Shown here piece by piece: positions 31,941 to 48,099 of a stretch of DNA of 64,000 nt (its first letter is position 1; every line of letters begins with the position of its first letter). A model generated the notes under the pieces. The model was not told the DNA's origin. It searched no databases and saw nothing but the letters and a program-made list of their open reading frames with translations. Source of the DNA: an uncultured virus (IMG/VR IMGVR_UViG_3300037466_002145) (taxonomy: Duplodnaviria > Heunggongvirae > Uroviricota > Caudoviricetes); IMG/VR virus record IMGVR_UViG_3300037466_002145, positions 1-64,000 of that record. The stretch is one strand, 5' to 3'. The position numbers were made by a program, and so were the translations under genes.

Positions 31941-32770
31941 TACTTACCTTTGCTTAGGTCGGTGACATTCGTGACATTACCAACAATCCAATGTTCGTAA
32001 TCGCGAATGGCAGTCAAAACGTCGGCGCGGTCGTCTGCCGTCATGGTAGACAGAACCGTCTTAGCTTTGACTTTGGAGTGAGAGAGAATGTAGTTGAGAT
32101 AGGTTCGCGGATTATAACCGTCCTTGGTCGGCGCGAACTTCTTGATGGCATTTTCAAGTGACAAATCTTTATAACCGAAGTCCGATTCAAAGAGGTAGGA
32201 CTCCAGGGCTGCCATGCCGTCATCTTCGGATGCGAAGATAGCGAATGAACCATCGAAGCCGATGGCCTTATGCGTCTTGGCGAAGTTGTCGTAGAGAAGC
32301 TTGCCAGGGTTGTTATATCGCCATGATATTGAGCCACCAGTGCGGACTTCAAAAGTGCCGTCTGGTTTCTTCATCGCGAAATAATACTTTTTGATCTTTT
32401 CGATGGTTGGGAAGACGGGAATCTTCGCTTCAAGGGTCGCGGCTTTGGCCTGTGCCGCTTGTGCGGTTTGCGTTGCCGTCTTGACCTGTTCGGTCAGAAC
32501 CTGCGTCTGTGAAATACTCGATTGCAGTTGTGGGGCGATCTTCTTGGTCGTCGTGACCGTCGCGGCCTGATAGGCAAGGAACCCCGAGAACAATGCCGTA
32601 ACGAAGATATGGCCGAGTGATTTCCACATCGGTTGAATTTCGACTGTCTTGGTTTCGACAGGGATCGGCGGCGGGTTTTCACTAATTTTCGGTGTTTCAA
32701 CAGTTGCTGAAACAGGCGTATCTACTGAAACAGGTTGAACAGTAGTATCAATAATTCTTTTTTCAGCCAT
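31940..32770 (-). CDS. membrane-anchored paralog of the RNNNPGN protein
   Basis: TM segment, coiled coil, GG.ISWRYNNPG..FAIF..KFAP..D. Confidence 0.6.
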   Translation of the reverse strand: MAEKRIIDTTVQPVSVDTPVSATVETPKISENPPPIPVETKTVEIQPMWKSLGHIFVTALFSGFLAYQAATVTTTKKIAPQLQSSISQTQVLTEQVKTATQTAQAAQAKAATLEAKIPVFPTIEKIKKYYFAMKKPDGTFEVRTGGSISWRYNNPGKLLYDNFAKTHKAIGFDGSFAIFASEDDGMAALESYLFESDFGYKDLSLENAIKKFAPTKDGYNPRTYLNYILSHSKVKAKTVLSTMTADDRADVLTAIRDYEHWIVGNVTNVTDLSKGK

Positions 32771-32810
32771 TGCTTATACCCAATTTGTGAGGAAATACGT
32801 CCTATTTAGT

Positions 32811-33167
32811 AAAATGCCTGCCTTCTGTTTCCAGGTGGCAGGCGACCCATGAAGCTTACGCCGCGAGGCGGATATCTTCGATAACGCTATTATCGTTTGC
32901 GTTTATACGTTTTCTTCGCGTTAACCCAGCTTAGATCGGGTACTGTCTTCTTCTCTTTTAACGTCATTCGATCCTATTTCGCGCCCATAAAGAAACACAC
33001 TAACGAGTCCTACTTTGTCCAACCGCGAAGATGGTCATATCCTAACTCGCTTCTGGTATACCCTTCATCTAGTGTGAAGGCCCATGCGGTCCAATAGTAG
33101 TGTGTTTTTTGGTGGACGCGTCGGCTTTGCAGCCGAGTCATGTCCGTATTATTACAAAAGCGTCATA
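32811..33167 (-). ncRNA. ssrA: circularly permuted (two-piece) tmRNA
   Basis: Acceptor piece TCGGC-TGCAAA-GCCGA-CGCGTCC-A-CCA (CCA 33110-12); intervening 32987-33109; coding piece starts GGGCGCG (32986, G3:U70); tag at 32900-32856 = ANDNSVIEDIRLAA*; outer limits approximate. Confidence 0.92.
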
Positions 33168-33456
33168 CAGTAATTACTTCTGCCTCTTTAGTTGAGACAA
33201 TTCCTTACCCATTTCTTTGATCTTCTCATTCAGCATGGCGATTTTTTGATCCTTACGCGCGAGTTCGCCGTTAATGCCGCCCATGATGTGATACAAAGTG
33301 TATATCTTTGGCACCTTCAATTCACCTCCGATGATTTCACGTAGAACGTGAGTCTCACCAGTTTTATGAAAGTCAGTTACCAATTCAGCCGCCAAGTCCA
33401 TTAGGGCTTGAGGCTTGCCATACTTATACAATGGATCAATTTTTATCATGGTGATT

Positions 33457-43375: not shown

Positions 43376-44830
43376 TTAGGCAGTCACACCTTCAATGCTA
43401 TAGCGCTTGTCATTGAGGGTTTCCAACATGACGTTGTATGGAGAGAACGTCTCCAGCTTGTTGGATAAAATGGACTTGAAGATAGCAGGCGAGAAGCCCG
43501 ATACCATCGCAGTGCCATTTTGGTCTTCCTTGACGGGACTGTTGTCAGCCCGTCCGTTCACATGCCAGAACACAACCTTTGGCAGATCGTATCCATGCGC
43601 CGCGAACTTGGATTTCGCGTTGTTATAGGCCAAGTCAGACAATCCAGCGCGTTGCGGATTGAATTCCATGTCCGACACAACAAGGATCATGTTTGGCAAG
43701 TCGGCTTGCGGAACATTGTAGCGAATCGCGTGGTTCAACACGAGGTCGAACGTCGCTTCGATATTCGTTCCGCCGTAGGCGTCGGCAAAGTCCAACTGTT
43801 GGTACATGTTGGATAGGGTCAACGGCCCATTGAGCTTGTTCATGCGCGGAACATTTGAGAACCCAACCCACATACCTGCGAAGTCGCCCGTTTGCTTACC
43901 AGCGGTATACAAACCGATTGACACAGAGATATCCATCGGCGTCACGTTGCCTGGAACCGCATTGCGTTGGCCGTAGTAGCTCCATGATCCCATCGAGCTT
44001 GACAAGTCAATGAACGGCAGAATCTTGTTGTCGCCAAGCAAGTTCGGCAGCGCTTCCCATTGCGCGTCGGCAACCTTTCGATCACCGTGGTTCAGGGACT
44101 TCAGCACGTCGTAAGGGAACACCGCGCCCGCATTGATCTTGCGCTCGGCCTTACCCGTTTCAGGATTGATCTTCACCAAGCCATCACGATAAGCCTTGTA
44201 CCCTTCGGGGTCGTGCTTGAAGAATGCCTTTTGATAACGTGCTGCGGCGACCGATGGCACGTGATCGTAGGTGATGCCCTTCCATTCGCGGGCGCACATT
44301 GGCGTTTCGACAACCTTCGTTAAAGTAACGAGGGTCTTGCGATAACGCTTGGGCGACCAGCCCAGGTAATTGCGGAGTGCCACGGCGTCCTTGCCCTTGC
44401 GAGGCATCCACTTGGCGCATAGGCCATTCTTGGCGTTCAGCGCGGCGGCAATGACCTTAAATGCTTGGTTGCGGGCGAAGTCGGTTTCGAAAACCAACAG
44501 GTCATCCCAACGGCCATACTCGGCCCAATATGGAAGGATCGCGACAAGGTCATCCTGATAGTTCTTTTCCATATGGCGAAGAATCTTGCGCGCAACTTCA
44601 CGTTCGCCAGCGCCACCGCGGATATCGCGGGTCCACAACAGGGTGCGGATGGCGAGTCTCTTGTCTTCGGCGGTTGCCAAATCAAACTCTTTCGAGAGGT
44701 CCGCACCGCGTTGGCCCACAGCCTTGAATAGGTTCAGAACTCGCGAACCTGAATCAGCATAGGTCACGGCACCATTGAAGGTAAGGCCCATGCTTGGCTT
44801 ATTGGAAACTGAATTGACAAACTTGTTCAT
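43376..44830 (-). CDS. DUF2828-family TROVE/Ro60-like protein with C-terminal vWA domain
   Basis: T.NGA..Y..SG, RDIRGGAGER, YGRWDDL, AKWMPR, VE..MCA.EW..I.Y..VPS, MIDAS DLSSS..GGTN..SDMEF, FW.V, SGFSP; ATG at 44830 after GGAG. Confidence 0.85.
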   Translation of the reverse strand: MNKFVNSVSNKPSMGLTFNGAVTYADSGSRVLNLFKAVGQRGADLSKEFDLATAEDKRLAIRTLLWTRDIRGGAGEREVARKILRHMEKNYQDDLVAILPYWAEYGRWDDLLVFETDFARNQAFKVIAAALNAKNGLCAKWMPRKGKDAVALRNYLGWSPKRYRKTLVTLTKVVETPMCAREWKGITYDHVPSVAAARYQKAFFKHDPEGYKAYRDGLVKINPETGKAERKINAGAVFPYDVLKSLNHGDRKVADAQWEALPNLLGDNKILPFIDLSSSMGSWSYYGQRNAVPGNVTPMDISVSIGLYTAGKQTGDFAGMWVGFSNVPRMNKLNGPLTLSNMYQQLDFADAYGGTNIEATFDLVLNHAIRYNVPQADLPNMILVVSDMEFNPQRAGLSDLAYNNAKSKFAAHGYDLPKVVFWHVNGRADNSPVKEDQNGTAMVSGFSPAIFKSILSNKLETFSPYNVMLETLNDKRYSIEGVTA

Positions 44831-44852
44831 TGTTATCACTCCTTTTTGTTAC

Positions 44853-44913: not shown

Positions 44914-44919
44914 CTTACT

Positions 44920-45009
44920 GACTAATAATATGCCCCCAACGGGCCATTCCCTATAAAGGCGGGGAATGTTGGATTCGAACCAACTGTTTTTTGTGTGCTG
45001 AAATTAGTC
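44920..45009 (-). ncRNA. CAGC-clamp RNA module E2 (permuted T arm/closed acceptor/D arm)
   Basis: GACUAAU-UUCAGC...AUUAGUC; GUUGG-UUCGAAU-CCAAC, AUUCCC/GGGAAU, GCCC-GUUGG-GGGC. Confidence 0.8.
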
Positions 45010-45018
45010 GAAATTGAC

Positions 45019-45134
45019 AGATTTGCTTTTTTAAGGGTTGGAATCGAACCAACTACACTTCGCTTTGAATGCGAATGCTCAACCAAATGAGCTTCCCGTC
45101 CAGATGGACGATATTTGTTTGCTGAAACAAATCT
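45019..45134 (-). ncRNA. CAGC-clamp RNA module E3 (D, anticodon UCA, T arms)
   Basis: AGAUUUGU-UUCAGCAA...GCAAAUCU; GCUC/GAGC, UUCGC-AUUCAAA-GCGAA, GUUGG-UUCGAUU-CCAAC. Confidence 0.8.
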
Positions 45135-45152: not shown

Positions 45153-45256
45153 AGGCTTACTTTGATCCAGGCTCGCGCCTGTTTCGGGATCGAACCGAAT
45201 AACCAACTGAGTTGCCTCAGTAAGTATCTACCAGATTGTTTTGCTGCAATAAGCCT
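45153..45256 (-). ncRNA. CAGC-clamp RNA module E4 (T-arm containing)
   Basis: AGGCUUAU-UGCAGCAA...GUAAGCCU; ACUGAG-GCAA-CUCAGU, UUCGG-UUCGAUC-CCGAA, CAGGC-GCGA-GCCUG. Confidence 0.8.
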
Positions 45257-45431: not shown

Positions 45432-45521
45432 AGAATGATTATCTACTTCGGGATTAATGTGGCGAAATCGAAGCCCACTTCTCTATACCAGAAAGTTTTA
45501 TTTGGTTGCTGAAATCATTCT
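45432..45521 (-). ncRNA. CAGC-clamp RNA module E6
   Basis: AGAAUGAUU-UCAGCAA...AAUCAUUCU(G); T-loop-like UUCGAUU in a GUGG/CCAC hairpin. Confidence 0.75.
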
Positions 45522-45869: not shown

Positions 45870-47072
45870 TACGCTTCCTATTAGAGTGAGGGTTAGTAAT
45901 GTCTATTTAGTCATTCCAAGTTGCAACGATGGCATTCACATGAGCAAAATATCTCGGACCATCTGGACCTTGAAAAGTGAAGTATTTGGCGACTAATAAA
46001 TTGGCTCCAGGTTGGAAATCCCTATCTCTAATCGCAGAGACTGCATCAACCAGCTTGCACGAATATAACAAATTCTCGGGCAAGTTTTTCTTCGACGGTT
46101 TGGACAACGGAAAGATGCCCGACACTTCAACGTAATCTTTAGTAACTGACATCTTAACTCCTATAGGGGAACTTGGTGTTGACGATGCCCATAAGGTATC
46201 CAACTGATGCCAAAAGGACCAAAGTCAAAGTGTAGGCAAAGACATTAGGGAAACTCATTATCGCAACAAGACCGATCAATAGGGCCAATCCGAGGATGAT
46301 AACCGTTTCGATCATAAATCTTCCATAGTCAGGATTTTGCATTTCAAATTACTCAGTCAAATAGCTGCGCTTGTCTTGCTTTTCCCAGGACGGTGAATCG
46401 CCGTCCTTGATGTATTCTTCCTGAATGATCCAATCGCGAATAATCGGTGCGATGGTCTCGGACGTGATCACCCATTCGGTTGCAATCGTGGCAACCACCA
46501 CAGGAAGAATGACGTACCATTGAGTCATCCACGGACCGAGGAAGTAGACGAAGATTCCCAAACTGAGGAACATCGCCACGTTGAGAACTACCCAGGCGAC
46601 ACAGGCTCGGCCCATAAATCCTGGACGGCGTACTTTCTTTGCGTCACGGTCATACATATTATAAGGTTCCTTAAAAGTCGGACGACGAGAAGTCAGGGGT
46701 TGAAAAATCCGATGTAGAATTCCCAGAATCGTCGCTACTAAAATCAGAGGTGCCCATTCCAGCCAATCCCGCGTCTTCGGTCCCACTATCCATCCCAGGA
46801 ACGGGAGACAAATCAGGAATATCGCAAGATACATCAGAAGGTCGAGTATCGTCATTATATACGTCCTGATTGGGGATCAATTCCGACATTACGATATTGA
46901 GTAAGATTGCATCCATAATCAGATCGCCGTCGTCCTCAGTTACGTTGGACCGTTGTAAGGAACGCCGTGCTTCAAACATCGATAGTGGCAGAAGGCCAGC
47001 GTTCCGACGTTTGGTATTAATTTCAGTAAGCTTCTTTTCAGAAAGCATTAGGTTCCCCCTCATGGTATTTAC

Positions 47073-47357
47073 AGGATCATCTTTATAAGTGTGCTACCCT
47101 TACACCAAGAGCCCATCAGAGATACATAAAAGCTGGCACCTGTATCAGAACCAATTAAGGCACACTTCTTAGCACACGAAGTCTAAGCACATGCCACTAC
47201 CCAACTACGAGTAGCTATCTGACCACCGAAAACCTTGCCAGTCGGCGTAGGTAGTTATCCTACTTGGCTTTCGCAGTTATGTATCTTTGGTGGACTCCCC
47301 CCGAATCGAACGTGGACCACTGCTTTGATAGAGCAAATTAGTTGCTGAACTGATCCT
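47073..47357 (-). ncRNA. CAGC-clamp RNA module E7: permuted Ala-type tRNA with internal CCA and 173-nt insert
   Basis: AGGAUCA-GUUCAGCAA...UGAUCCU; anticodon-like arm, T arm, GGAGUCC-A-CCA (47288), insert 47115-47287, GGGCUCU (47114) plus D arm. Confidence 0.8.
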
Positions 47358-47394
47358 TGATCGTTTTCATTCAAGGATATTTGGAGTATTTACC

Positions 47395-47464
47395 TGAATA
47401 GCTTTTACAGATCGATTAAAGGTCGATTGCTGGAATACCAGCGTTTATTTGCTGAAACTATTCA
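47395..47464 (-). ncRNA. CAGC-clamp RNA module E8
   Basis: UGAAUAGU-UUCAGCAA...GCUAUUCA; GCUGG/CCAGC and AUCGA-CCUUUAA-UCGAU hairpins. Confidence 0.75.
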
Positions 47465-47471
47465 AACTAGG

Positions 47472-47544
47472 TTCAATACCACGCCTGCAATCTTACGAGT
47501 AGCAGCATCCCTCCGCGAAGGGACGTTCTCCGTATGGTATTGAA
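47472..47544 (-). ncRNA. putative three-way-junction RNA
   Basis: UUCAAUACCA/UGGUAUUGAA closing helix with two internal hairpins; strand inferred from context. Confidence 0.5.
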
Positions 47545-47548
47545 ATAG

Positions 47549-47618
47549 TGGAGCCAAGTGAGGGATTTTCACCCCCGTCATCACTCATGGTGATGTTTTA
47601 GGTCAAAACTAACTCGGC
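47549..47618 (-). ncRNA. tRNA-like RNA with non-canonical loops
   Basis: GCCGAGU/ACUUGGC-U-CCA, T loop UGAAAAU, D arm GUUUU/AAAAC. Confidence 0.65.
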
Positions 47619-47624
47619 AAGAGG

Positions 47625-47721
47625 TGGAGTCGGGGGAAGGATTTGCGCCTTCAACTCTTGATGTTTGGGAGGCGGCGAGGCGTCCAAAAAATCAATACTC
47701 TAATATTTGAGTTACCCCGAC
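47625..47721 (-). ncRNA. tRNA-like RNA with expanded anticodon arm
   Basis: GUCGGGG/CCCCGAC-U-CCA, T loop CGCAAAU, 28-nt segment in place of the 7-nt anticodon loop. Confidence 0.65.
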
Positions 47722-48099
47722 ATAAAGGGAGTTATCAGATTGGCTTTTGCTTTTTTTCTCCAAAAGAAAAGGCAATTGTTTGCTGCAACCAATCTTTCAA
47801 TTTTTGTATTCTACTCGAAACGAATTAGAAAGTCAACAATTATTTTCAATTCCGAGTCATTTTTTCTTTCGTTTCTTGCGGATATCCCAATATATCTAAT
47901 AGGGTATTATCCTGTGACTTATGCCATTCCTCTATCATGGTCGATACCGTCGATATCGGAGATTGAACGATGAAGGCACGCCCATTCTCTAAGAATATCT
48001 CAGTATGGTTGGCATCCACATCCATATAGGCGGCAATCTGATAATTAAAGACAACCAATTGATTGCCAGCGTCGGTCGTGAAATAGAAACGATTATCCA

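What the first reader, a model, noticed from the sequence alone, without database searches (positions are those of the whole stretch)
47073..47357. Permuted G3:U70 tRNA with internal CCA inside a CAGC clamp, built like the two-piece tmRNA
Seen order: clamp, anticodon-like arm (loop CUAUCAA), T arm, GGAGUCC-A-CCA, 173-nt insert closed by AGAUACAUAA/UUAUGUAUCU, GGGCUCU, D arm, clamp. The acceptor has G1:C72, G2:C71, G3:U70 and A73 (AlaRS identity). The junctions (GUCCACCA-AA ... AU-GGGC) mirror those of the phage tmRNA at 32986/33110. Inference: RNase P plus 3' trimming would give a two-piece, alanylatable RNA whose mRNA domain is replaced by a protein-binding handle.
Basis: partly seen in the sequence, partly recalled or inferred. 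Interest (0 to 1): 0.88.

Follow-up and report, generated by a model that had tools for sequence, protein, structure and literature searches.

The report
Phage Y RNA shaped like tRNA
This is a phage non-coding RNA of the Y-RNA kind, a circularly permuted tRNA look-alike that probably partners a Ro60-like phage protein, and it is unusual in having a built-in CCA end and a 173-base insert in its acceptor stem.

Summary
On the minus strand, 47357-47073 holds a 7-bp terminal clamp, a hairpin, a T arm, an acceptor 3' strand, ACCA, a 173-nt insert, an acceptor 5' strand and a D arm.

It is not a tmRNA and not a one-off. A covariance model built from relatives matches it full length (64.1 bits, E 2.8e-12). 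The family lies beside DUF2828 genes in phage contigs, always on the gene's strand. The window's DUF2828 gene (44839-43376) folds like Ro60.

The topology, the 15:48 covariation and the gene linkage are those of YrlA, the known tRNA-mimicking Y RNA. Rfam's YrlA model matches only the tRNA-like core of relatives, below threshold. The terminal "handle" (clamp plus a UUNCAGCAA motif) is different.

New at family level:
- CCA sits exactly at positions 74-76 in 23 of 34 acceptor loops.
- G3:U70 is enriched, in 9 of 38 members.

This points to opening by RNase P, as shown for M. smegmatis YrlA. The closest relative, however, has a closed 3-nt loop with no CCA and no G3:U70. RNA contigs read about 44 nt past the CCA. 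Alanylation remains speculative.

Verdict: a new variant of a known kind.

The parts
47351..47357 (-). Clamp, 5' strand (AGGAUCA). It is half of the 7-bp terminal stem of the handle.
   Evidence: Read. It pairs with 47079-47073. This helix is 97.6% paired, with compensatory changes at all 7 pairs, across 136 distinct family rows.
47337..47350 (-). 5' single-stranded linker with the conserved UUCAGCAA motif. Proposed protein-recognition motif of the handle.
   Evidence: A motif of the form xxxCAGCAA or a near variant is present in all 38 curated members by the selection filter; the commonest forms are UUUCAGCAA (8), UUACAGCAA (7) and GUUCAGCAA (5). It occupies the place of GNCGAA in YrlA (alignment).
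47320..47336 (-). V hairpin (UUGCU-CUAUCAA-AGCAG). It sits at the tRNA variable-arm position.
   Evidence: The loop is 6 nt in L002 and the region varies across the family. The loop begins CUAU, as the YUAY described for the YrlA V loop (PMC4201824, section 6).
47299..47315 (-). T arm: CCACG-UUCGAUU-CGGGG.
   Evidence: The family helix is 97.6% paired with covariation. The T loop is UUCGAxU in most members.
47292..47298 (-). Acceptor 3' strand (GGAGUCC, positions 66-72).
   Evidence: It forms 7 of 7 pairs with 47114-47108, including G3:U70.
47288..47291 (-). A73 followed by the genome-encoded CCA.
   Evidence: CCA is at this exact offset in 23 of 34 family loops of 4 nt or more.
47115..47287 (-). 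Intervening insert of 173 nt in the acceptor loop. It is closed by a 10-bp stem (47286-47277 with 47129-47120) and ends with the 5-nt leader CUGAU.
   Evidence: -56.5 kcal/mol, z = -2.89. It is absent from the nearest relative. Inserts after the acceptor 3' strand also occur in L043 (83 nt), L005 (103 nt), L081 (71 nt) and L057 (139 nt). No sequence likeness was found among the inserts.
47108..47114 (-). Acceptor 5' strand (GGGCUCU). G1 at 47114 is the predicted RNase P site, with U at position -1.
   Evidence: The cleavage itself is inferred, not shown.
47091..47105 (-). D arm (GUGU-AAGGGUA-GCAC), with A14, A15, G18 and G19.
   Evidence: helix 93.9% paired. A15 pairs with U48 (47316). Positions 15:48 are G:C or A:U in 30 of 38 members, against 13.9 expected.
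47080..47090 (-). A-rich 3' linker of the handle.
   Evidence: The family consensus ends AAAAGU (12 of 38) or a similar A-rich run.
47073..47079 (-). Clamp, 3' strand (UGAUCCU).
43376..44839 (-). Gene for a DUF2828/DUF7788 protein with a Ro60-like fold. Proposed protein partner.
   Evidence: Pfam DUF7788 at 1.1e-33 and DUF2828 at 3.9e-22; phrog_850 'RNA-binding protein' at 5e-128. AlphaFold2 model with pLDDT 81.4. The top 11 Foldseek PDB hits are all Ro60/TROVE structures, E 2.7e-7 to 8.9e-5.
47737..47795 (-). Further handle unit with a small payload. It is the first of the array.
   Evidence: R2 hit at 25.6 bits; clamp and UUGCAGCAA motif. A promoter-like site lies at 47836-47808.
47395..47464 (-). 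Further handle unit (clamp UGAAUAG/CUAUUCA, motif UUUCAGCAA) directly upstream of the finding.
   Evidence: It is nearly identical in L002. L002:3414-3490 scores 27.6 bits.
45432..45521 (-). Further handle unit.
   Evidence: R2 hit at 26.5 bits; clamp and motif.
45153..45256 (-). Further handle unit, with a T-arm-like hairpin.
   Evidence: R2 hit at 32 bits.
45019..45134 (-). Further handle unit carrying a tRNA-like payload in normal order (D, anticodon-like and T arms, no acceptor stem).
   Evidence: R2 hit at 42.3 bits. Rfam tRNA, 38 bits, at 45035-45096. Fold.
44916..45013 (-). Further handle unit: a second, small permuted tRNA-like RNA with acceptor loop GCCUUUAU. It lies 77 nt upstream of the DUF2828 gene.
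   Evidence: R2 hit at 49.5 bits; parsed.

Best explanation
The RNA is a phage Y RNA of the YrlA kind. It has two modules.

The first module is a conserved handle: a 7-bp clamp of the two ends, a single-stranded UUCAGCAA motif on the 5' side and an A-rich run on the 3' side. This handle most likely binds the phage's Ro60-like DUF2828 protein, encoded 2.2 kb downstream on the same strand.

The second module is a tRNA look-alike in circularly permuted order: variable-arm hairpin, T arm, acceptor stem, D arm. It folds into the tRNA L-shape and presents a tRNA-like surface to a host or phage factor.

This RNA is one of at least seven handle-bearing RNAs in an array at 47795-44916 upstream of that gene.

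In this member the acceptor stem is not closed by a short loop. It is closed by ACCA, a structured 173-nt insert and a 5-nt leader. I infer that RNase P cuts before G1 (47114). I also infer that the insert is then removed or trimmed, as in the same phage's two-piece tmRNA. That would leave two pieces held together by the acceptor stem, the clamp and the D/T contacts.

Shown here: the structure, the family, the gene linkage and the Ro60-like fold. Inferred: protein binding (about 0.7), opening by RNase P (about 0.45) and charging with alanine (about 0.15). The confidence figure given for this explanation refers to its core: a YrlA-like Y RNA that partners the Ro60-fold protein.
For: 1. Family and structure.
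- CM R2, built from 21 relatives, hits the window RNA full length at 64.1 bits.
- On 136 distinct rows, 92.1% of cells pair against 58.1% in shuffles and 33-46% with slid partners. All 28 pairs show compensatory changes.
- The tertiary 15:48 pair is G:C or A:U in 30 of 38 members, against 13.9 expected. The window has A15:U48 and L002 has G15:C48.

2. Linkage to the gene.
- All 155 R2 hits at E <= 0.01 lie on the strand of the DUF2828 gene.
- 36 of 83 sources have a hit of 41 bits or more.
- Of 57 such hits in fetched loci, 45 lie within 1 kb of the gene and 54 within 2.5 kb.
- Mycobacterium phage Whirlwind has a 67.2-bit member directly after its 'Ro-like RNA binding protein' gene. Felixounavirus AYO145A has a 59.5-bit member.

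3. Partner fold. The top 11 PDB matches of the protein model are all Ro60/TROVE, including the Ro60 of Thermus phage phiLo.

4. Likeness to YrlA.
- Rfam YrlA matches L002 at 32.1 bits (E 2.9e-5), L087 at 38.3 and L048 at 39.9.
- The order V-T-AS-D, the YUAY start of the V loop and linkage within 4 kb on the same strand are the published YrlA features (PMC4201824, sections 5 and 6).

5. Opening of the acceptor loop.
- CCA is at positions 74-76 in 23 of 34 loops, on 20 distinct acceptor stems in 17 contigs. Composition predicts 0.015 per loop.
- 19 of those 23 have a perfect 7-bp stem.
- M. smegmatis YrlA, with a 7-bp stem, is cut by RNase P and gains CCA (PMC4201824, section 8; bioRxiv 10.1101/312249, passages).
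- The window's tmRNA has the same junction design.

6. Expression. Metatranscriptome contigs from 4 runs of 4 studies match 47243-47525 at 100% identity.
Against: - No binding, processing or charging was measured.
- The handle lacks the GNCGAA Ro-binding motif of YrlA. Pfam TROVE does not match the protein at E <= 0.01.
- Rfam YrlA finds nothing in the window at E <= 10. It stays below its gathering score of 69 in relatives, where it matches mainly the core.
- 47 of 83 sources have no R2 hit of 41 bits or more. Five of 8 GenBank phages with the gene show nothing above 20 bits: Vibrio nt-1, Listeria LP-125, Staphylococcus SEP9, Campylobacter F356 and Stenotrophomonas DLP_6.
- Several small ORFs lie between this RNA and the gene.

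Against opening at the CCA:
- The nearest relative has a closed AGU loop.
- 11 of 34 loops lack CCA.
- RNA contigs X7 and X10 read through the CCA for about 44 nt and stop at 47243/47244. No RNA contig covered the predicted 3' piece. Depth was low and contigs cannot show ends.
- DNA carry-over in those RNA libraries cannot be excluded.
Confidence: 0.72

Rival explanations
1. The same Y-RNA identity, but the RNA stays in one piece. The insert is a lineage-specific extension of the acceptor arm, like the long acceptor stems reported for some cyanobacterial YrlA RNAs. It would serve as an extra protein- or RNA-binding platform. The ACCA would then be a relic of the tRNA or tmRNA cassette from which this acceptor arm came, sitting in an internal loop.
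For: - RNA contigs from two studies run uninterrupted from the T arm through the CCA into the insert.
- The 10-bp closing stem starts 2 nt after the CCA and could stack on the acceptor stem.
- The acceptor hairpin differs completely between the window and L002 while the flanks are about 80% identical, as expected for a swapped cassette.
- G3:U70 also occurs in 4 members without CCA.
- Most YrlA RNAs are thought to keep closed acceptor loops (bioRxiv 10.1101/312249, passage read).
Against: - A relic would not keep CCA at one exact offset on 20 different, fully covarying acceptor stems while the rest of each loop drifts.
- The same phage must already excise a similarly built intervening segment from its tmRNA precursor.
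- Contigs cannot show RNA ends.
Confidence: 0.3
2. After RNase P cleavage and 3' trimming, the two-piece RNA is charged with alanine by host AlaRS. It then acts through the translation machinery (EF-Tu, SmpB or the ribosome), like a tmRNA without a message.
For: - The window RNA has G1:C72, G2:C71, G3:U70, A73 and CCA. The phage's tmRNA has the same top of the acceptor stem.
- G:U is enriched at 3:70: 9 of 38 members on 8 distinct stems, against 5 of 228 at the other six positions, Fisher p 1.2e-5.
- Five members combine G3:U70 with NCCA.
- The YrlA authors noted that cleaved M. smegmatis YrlA 'could potentially be aminoacylated' (PMC4201824, section 10, passage).
Against: - 29 of 38 members, including the nearest relative, lack G3:U70. 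The discriminator varies (A 13, G 5, U 3, C 2).
- No tag reading frame exists. A canonical D stem is present, unlike tmRNA.
- ARAGORN and the Rfam tmRNA models do not call it.
- No SmpB gene turned up among the 30 window ORFs scanned against Pfam. This is a partial scan.
- No aminoacylation data exist.
Confidence: 0.12
3. A decayed junction between two tandem tRNA genes (T arm of one, D arm of the next) with no function of its own.
For: - The string NCCA, short A/U-rich spacer, G1 looks like a tRNA-tRNA junction. Such junctions scored weakly with the models (for example L025:2822-2938).
- The YrlA authors warn of this false positive (PMC4201824, section 18, passage).
Against: - The two acceptor strands pair with each other: 7 of 7 here and in 28 of 38 members.
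- No D or anticodon arm precedes the T arm, and no anticodon or T arm follows the D arm. The conserved handle flanks them instead.
- The covariation and the gene linkage argue for selection.
Confidence: 0.03

Closest known systems
YrlA (Y RNA-like A; Rfam RF02553), partner of bacterial and phage Ro60/Rsr
   Same: - Ends paired into a terminal stem.
- Permuted tRNA-like module in the order V, T arm, acceptor-like stem-loop, D arm.
- 15:48 covariation and a V loop starting YUAY.
- Encoded within 4 kb of, and on the same strand as, a Ro60-fold protein.
- Several Y RNAs per locus.
(PMC4201824, sections 5, 6 and 8.)
   Different: - The partner is DUF2828/DUF7788, which is Ro60-like by fold only.
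- The handle motif is UUNCAGCAA, not GNCGAAN0-1G.
- The Rfam model matches only the core, or the full length weakly, at 32-40 bits against a gathering score of 69, and does not match the window copy at all.
- The acceptor stem is mostly 7 bp with a genome-encoded NCCA (23 of 34). S. Typhimurium YrlA has a closed 6-bp stem and no CCA (bioRxiv 10.1101/312249, passages).
Mycobacterium smegmatis YrlA
   Same: It has a 7-bp acceptor stem. It is cut by RNase P in the acceptor loop. The 5' half ends in CCA, and both halves stay with Rsr (PMC4201824, section 8). This is the model for the processing proposed here.
   Different: - There the terminal CA is added after cleavage. Here the full CCA is encoded.
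- Here 173 nt lie between the CCA and G1.
- Processing of the window RNA is not shown.
Two-piece (circularly permuted) tmRNA, including the window's own copy at 33201-32765 (-)
   Same: - Gene order: T arm, acceptor 3' strand, ACCA, intervening segment closed by a 10-bp stem, short leader, G1.
- G1:C72, G2:C71, G3:U70, C4:G69 and A73 are identical.
   Different: - No tag reading frame, no pseudoknots and no mRNA-like domain.
- A canonical D stem.
- No match to the tmRNA models.
- The intervening sequences are not homologous.
Yrl1/Yrl2 of Thermus phage phiLo with phiRo60
   Same: Phage-encoded Y RNA-like RNAs lie upstream of a phage Ro60 gene. phiRo60 is among the best structural matches of the window's protein (PMC12135203, abstract and passages).
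   Different: - Those RNAs are described by a CGAA-bearing bulge and a stem-bulge-stem design. The word 'tRNA-like' does not occur in that paper.
- That protein was identified as a Ro60 homologue by database search, whereas the window's protein is Ro60-like by fold only.
Circularly permuted tRNA genes of the red alga Cyanidioschyzon merolae
   Same: The 3' half precedes the 5' half. The acceptor starts closed and is opened by RNase P or RNase Z. The comparison is drawn in bioRxiv 10.1101/312249 (discussion passage); the organism name is recalled.
   Different: Those precursors are circularised and become decoding tRNAs. Here there is no anticodon arm, and no splicing endonuclease is known in bacteria.

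Membership tests
YrlA-class Y RNA | Permuted tRNA-like module: V region, T arm, acceptor-like stem, D arm between paired 5' and 3' ends | tested here: met
   Covariation is seen in all six helices.
YrlA-class Y RNA | tRNA tertiary signature, including covarying 15:48 (G:C or A:U) | tested here: met
   30 of 38 members against 13.9 expected. U8 in 34 of 38, A14 in 36 of 38, GG in the D loop in 34 of 38. The window has A15:U48.
YrlA-class Y RNA | Encoded within about 4 kb of a Ro60 orthologue, on the same strand | tested here: met
   The RNA lies 2.2 kb upstream of the gene at 44839-43376, on the same strand. Family: 54 of 57 hits within 2.5 kb, all on the gene's strand.
YrlA-class Y RNA | GNCGAAN0-1G motif near the 5' end (proposed Ro60 contact) | tested here: not met
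   The 5' linker reads GUUCAGCAACUAAU. The family motif is UUNCAGCAA.
YrlA-class Y RNA | Score at or above the Rfam RF02553 gathering threshold (69 bits) | tested here: not met
   No match in the window at E <= 10. Relatives score 32.1, 38.3 and 39.9 bits. None of 10 loci reaches the gathering score.
YrlA-class Y RNA | Partner protein is Ro60 (TROVE ring plus vWA domain) | tested here: inconclusive
   Pfam TROVE is not matched; DUF2828 and DUF7788 are. The fold search puts Ro60/TROVE structures in the top 11, TM 0.31-0.56.
YrlA-class Y RNA | Physical binding to the Ro60-like protein | not testable with these tools
   Needs a pull-down or EMSA.
Two-piece tmRNA | Permuted gene with internal CCA and G3:U70 in the acceptor | tested here: met
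Two-piece tmRNA | Tag reading frame with a resume codon and a stop, plus pseudoknots | tested here: not met
   Only 11 nt lie between the D arm and the 3' clamp. ARAGORN calls one tmRNA in the window, at 32765-33201 only.
Two-piece tmRNA | Match to the tmRNA covariance models | tested here: not met
   No tmRNA family matches 46700-47700 at E <= 10.
Canonical tRNA | Anticodon arm with a 7-nt loop; contiguous order of acceptor, D, anticodon and T arms | tested here: not met
   ARAGORN and Rfam tRNA do not call it. The hairpin loop is 7 nt here and 6 nt in L002, and varies across the family.
AlaRS substrate | G3:U70 with A73 and a free 3' CCA (identity rule recalled from established knowledge) | tested here: inconclusive
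   The sequence elements are present. A free CCA end is not shown, and RNA contigs read past it.

The most novel reading that the evidence does not exclude
DUF2828 phages carry a large, unannotated class of Y RNAs. In this class the tRNA-like module is routinely opened by RNase P to expose a genome-encoded CCA end while the RNA stays tethered to a Ro60-like ring. A subset, of which this RNA is the fullest example (G3:U70, A73, CCA), is then alanylated. Such nicked, chargeable acceptor mimics could act as decoys or sensors for host defences that attack the tRNA acceptor end. Alternatively they could bring aminoacyl-tRNA-binding factors to the Ro-like protein.
Probability: 0.15. Interest if true: 0.9.

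Novelty: new variant of a known kind. Interest (0 to 1): 0.62.

Why it matters
Ro60-like DUF2828 genes occur in 709 GenBank phage records. These include Felixounavirus, mycobacteriophages and T4-like phages. A preprint reports that the Bas63 homologue counters the Ppl defence system and only guesses that some neighbouring 'tRNAs' might be Y RNAs (bioRxiv 10.1101/2024.10.10.617714, passage read).

This work supplies the missing RNA partner as a defined family with a structure model. It shows that the RNA is modular: a constant handle with variable tRNA-like payloads. It also shows that an encoded CCA end is under selection, which canonical YrlA lacks. Whether Y RNAs can act as open, possibly charged tRNA mimics therefore becomes directly testable in tractable E. 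coli phages.

The library searches I ran found no description of this RNA family:
- 'DUF2828'
- 'YrlA' with 'phage'
- 'Ro60', 'phage' and 'Y RNA'
- 'Ro-like RNA binding protein'
- 'YrlA'
- 'permuted tRNA' with 'bacteriophage'

The supplementary tables of PMC4201824 list its 22 phages and might include some members. They could not be seen.

Tried and rejected
- blastn of the region against GenBank phages found no match.
- An exact 24-mer of the T arm, acceptor strand and CCA found nothing in IMG/VR.
- A degenerate pattern found only the contig of L002.
- MAFFT could not place the 173-nt gap when aligning the window with L002. I rebuilt it from its own hits.
- My descriptor scan and handle scan were too permissive to count on their own. 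The handle scan gave 6-28 hits per shuffled strand. They were used only to point at candidates.
- I tested whether the insert is homologous to the tmRNA intervening segment or to inserts of other members. It is not.
- tmRNA, canonical tRNA and tRNA-dimer readings were rejected (see the membership tests).
- Sequence search of the protein against PDB chains found nothing meaningful, best E 0.3. Only the fold search showed Ro60.
- No RNA contig covered 47242-46930 in the four runs laid. Contigs at depth 3-6 cannot show absence, so this is not counted for or against processing.
Closer relatives (proteins P0002 at 93% and P0003 at 85%) could not be examined.
- Two reviews, PMC10870794 and PMC6047535, are not held.
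Full report
**Setting**

The window is part of an 83-kb IMG/VR phage record estimated to be 38% complete. It has T4-like baseplate genes and a gp32-like gene. It carries 17 tRNA genes and one circularly permuted tmRNA, all on the minus strand. The finding lies in a non-coding stretch of that strand. The next gene starts with a GAGGGGG ribosome-binding site and an ATG near 47047.

**The observation**

Read on the minus strand, the sequence holds all of the following:
- clamp AGGAUCA (47357-47351) paired with UGAUCCU (47079-47073);
- hairpin UUGCU-CUAUCAA-AGCAG;
- T arm CCACG-UUCGAUU-CGGGG;
- acceptor 3' strand GGAGUCC, then A73-CCA ending at 47288;
- 173 nt closed by a 10-bp stem;
- leader CUGAU;
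- acceptor 5' strand GGGCUCU from 47114;
- U8-G9 and the D arm GUGU-AAGGGUA-GCAC.

ARAGORN and Rfam call nothing here, even at E <= 10. The MFE fold of the 291-nt RNA recovers the clamp, the hairpin, the acceptor stem and the insert stem. The insert alone is more stable than all 200 shuffles (z = -2.89).

**A relative without the insert**

The DUF2828 protein encoded at 44839-43376 led to one close IMG/VR relative, L002, with 82% protein identity. At the syntenic place, L002:3503-3617, it has the same clamp, linker, hairpin, T arm and D arm. Its acceptor stem, however, is CAGACGC-AGU-GCGUCUG. That is 7 bp with a completely different sequence, closed by three bases, with no CCA and with G3:C70. 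The T stem (C-G to G-C), the D stem (G-C to U-A) and the 15:48 pair (A:U to G:C) change in a compensating way between the two. So the architecture is conserved, and the insert with its ACCA is specific to the window's lineage.

**A family next to DUF2828 genes**

- The protein has 709 tblastn matches among GenBank phage records. It has more than 7,000 relatives at E <= 1e-20 in the protein collection.
- I fetched 80 IMG/VR loci around homologues.
- A covariance model seeded on L002 alone found 29 matches at E <= 0.001.
- A second model, built from 21 of these, found 155 matches at E <= 0.01 in 83 sources. Every one lies on the strand of the gene.
- That second search includes the window RNA end to end (64.1 bits, E 2.8e-12).
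- 36 of the 83 sources have a hit of 41 bits or more. Of the 57 such hits in fetched loci, 45 lie within 1 kb and 54 within 2.5 kb of the gene, either just upstream or just downstream.
- On the 136 distinct aligned rows, 92.1% of cells pair. Shuffles give 58.1% and slid partners 33-46%. All 28 pairs show changes on both sides. The alignment was fitted to the model, which favours the structure, but the margin is large.
- In GenBank phages, Mycobacterium phage Whirlwind has a 67.2-bit member in the gap after its 'Ro-like RNA binding protein' gene. Felixounavirus AYO145A has a 59.5-bit member inside its tRNA cluster. Synechococcus phage B3 has a 35.3-bit match.
- The other five phages tested (Vibrio nt-1, Listeria LP-125, Staphylococcus SEP9, Campylobacter F356, Stenotrophomonas DLP_6) gave nothing above 20 bits.

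**What the family is**

The constant part is a handle:
- a 7-bp clamp that covaries freely;
- UUNCAGCAA followed by an A-rich stretch on the 5' side;
- an A-rich run, often AAAAGU, on the 3' side.

The payload between the two sides varies:
- most often the permuted tRNA-like module;
- sometimes a tRNA-like module in normal order, such as window 45134-45019 and L020;
- sometimes only small hairpins.

The window has at least seven such units between 47795 and 44916, all upstream of the DUF2828 gene.

An AlphaFold2 model of the protein (pLDDT 81.4) has Ro60/TROVE structures as its top 11 PDB matches. They include the Ro60 of Thermus phage phiLo, Xenopus Ro and Deinococcus Rsr, at E 2.7e-7 to 8.9e-5.

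A constant stem with a single-stranded motif, variable loops, several paralogues per locus and linkage to a Ro60-fold gene together describe Y RNAs. The permuted tRNA-like module is the published hallmark of YrlA: the V, T, AS, D order, a YUAY start of the V loop, 15:48 covariation, and linkage within 4 kb on the same strand (PMC4201824, sections 5 and 6 read). Here 15:48 is G:C or A:U in 30 of 38 curated members, against 13.9 expected.

Rfam's YrlA model does recognise relatives, but below threshold. It scores 32.1 bits over its full length in L002. It scores 38.3 and 39.9 bits over the core only in L087 and L048. Its gathering score is 69. The GNCGAA motif of YrlA is replaced by CAGCAA, and Pfam does not call the protein TROVE. 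I therefore file the RNA as a YrlA-like Y RNA of a distinct sub-family, not as a member of RF02553.

**The CCA**

I curated 38 distinct permuted members from the 150 best R2 hits. The filter required clamp >= 6 of 7 pairs, T >= 4 of 5, acceptor >= 6 of 7, D >= 3 of 4, and a CNGC motif. Rows that failed were mostly tRNA-tRNA junctions, other payload types or duplicates.

- Of the 34 acceptor loops of 4 nt or more, 23 have CCA exactly at positions 74-76.
- At the other nine offsets examined there is 1 CCA in about 205 places. Base composition predicts 0.015 per place.
- These 23 sit on 20 different acceptor stems in 17 contigs, with all four discriminators. 19 of them have a perfect 7-bp stem.
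- The rest of each loop is not conserved.

That pattern indicates selection on the CCA. It does not look like a relic.

A 7-bp acceptor stem with a 3' NCCA is what bacterial RNase P recognises (established knowledge, recalled). M. smegmatis YrlA, the one YrlA with a 7-bp stem, is cut by RNase P at the expected site. Its 5' half ends in CCA, and both halves remain bound to Rsr (PMC4201824, section 8 read). S. Typhimurium YrlA is described as lacking a free CCA end (bioRxiv 10.1101/312249, abstract and passages). Routine opening of the acceptor loop in this phage family is thus a reasonable inference, but nothing here shows it.

**The insert and the tmRNA parallel**

The window's tmRNA gene reads ...CGCGUCC-ACCA-AA, then a 10-bp stem enclosing about 100 nt, then CUUUAU-GGGCGCG. 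The finding has the same layout. The two share GUCCACCAAA and AUGGGC, and the same top four acceptor pairs. The interiors are unrelated.

Two-piece tmRNAs are matured by removing that segment (established knowledge). So the host-phage system already handles this design.

Long inserts directly after the acceptor 3' strand occur in four other members:
- L043, 83 nt, after ACCA;
- L005:4602, 103 nt, after ACCA;
- L081, 71 nt, after ACAA;
- L057:6444, 139 nt, after GCUA.

By eye, the start and end of the L043 and L081 inserts are complementary, which suggests a closing stem like the window's. I did not fold them.

**G3:U70**

G:U, with G on the 5' strand, occurs at 3:70 in 9 of 38 members on 8 distinct stems. 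At the other six acceptor positions together it occurs in 5 of 228 cases (Fisher p 1.2e-5). Relatedness inflates such tests, but the stems differ.

Five of the nine also have NCCA. Only the window RNA adds A73. Four have no CCA. Either the module descends from an alanine-type acceptor, or a subset is recognised by AlaRS. The data do not decide between these.

**Expression**

The stretch is held nearly whole (0.93-1.00 of the sampled words) by six soil or rhizosphere DNA runs, five of which may be the source of the window. It is held in part by rhizosphere metatranscriptomes.

Contigs of four RNA runs from four studies lie at 47243-47525, 47244-47392, 47335-47478 and 47344-47515, all without a mismatch. 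They cover the upstream handle unit, the 5' part of this RNA, the CCA and about 44 nt of the insert.

- Two studies stop at 47243/47244. This is a weak hint of an end or of a strain branch point.
- Contigs cannot show ends or strand.
- DNA carry-over cannot be excluded.
- At face value, some molecules are not cut at the CCA.

**Verdict**

The framing as a tmRNA-like, alanine-accepting molecule is not established, and the closest relative partly contradicts it.

The best reading is a YrlA-like phage Y RNA for a Ro60-fold protein, probably opened by RNase P. The permuted tRNA mimicry, the Ro60 link and the RNase P precedent are all in print, so the kind is known. The following appear new in the literature I could search:
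- the DUF2828-linked handle;
- the modular array;
- the conserved encoded CCA;
- the tmRNA-style intervening segment.

Noticed in passing
window 47552-47618 (-); L002:3338-3405: A weak tRNA-like gene (Rfam tRNA 36.1 bits) lies 200 nt upstream. It has a 4-bp 'anticodon' stem with only a 5-nt loop, a T loop GAAAAUC and an encoded CCA. The L002 orthologue (37.8 bits) has a different, longer anticodon region. ARAGORN calls neither.
   Followed up: partly
window 45019-45134 (-); L002:4766-4871: This handle unit carries a normal-order tRNA-like body without an acceptor stem. Its anticodon-like loop reads AUUCAAA (UCA, which would read UGA). ARAGORN calls the L002 orthologue tRNA-SeC(tca).
   Followed up: partly
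window 47354-47377 (-): A hairpin UCCUUGA-(10 nt)-UCAAGGA is present only in the window, not in L002. It overlaps 4 nt of the clamp's 5' strand, so it could compete with clamp formation.
   Followed up: no
L083:6389-6520 (Escherichia phage AYO145A, NC_028825.1): The Felixounavirus member of the RNA family lies inside the tRNA cluster. It is antisense to an annotated hypothetical CDS (AVT61_gp131, L083:6359-6616), which may therefore be a mis-annotation.
   Followed up: no
L048:3113-3439: Another DUF2828 phage contig carries an alpha-type permuted tmRNA (142.5 bits) about 1.4 kb upstream of the gene, next to two family RNAs. Permuted tmRNA and these Y-like RNAs thus occur together in this contig as well as in the window.
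   Followed up: no
L086:5861-7072 (Listeria phage LP-125): An RtcB-like 'tRNA-splicing ligase' gene lies 1.3 kb downstream of the DUF2828 gene on the same strand. This recalls the Rsr-YrlA-RtcB operon of Salmonella. Model R2 found no RNA above 20 bits there.
   Followed up: no
window 47808-47836 (-): A promoter-like site, TTGACT-17-TAGAAT (10 of 12), lies just upstream of the first handle unit. The count of such sites in the region is not above shuffles (8 against 5.9 +/- 2.4).
   Followed up: no
window 47243-47244: RNA contigs from two different studies end at the same place inside the insert. The site is just 3' of the small hairpin GUAGG-AUAACUA-CCUAC. It could be an RNA end or a strain branch point.
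   Followed up: no
L090:4806-4906 (Synechococcus phage B3): A 35.3-bit family match overlaps a feature annotated 'tRNA-Pseudo-GCA' just downstream of the DUF2828 gene. Some phage 'pseudo-tRNAs' may be Y-like RNAs.
   Followed up: no
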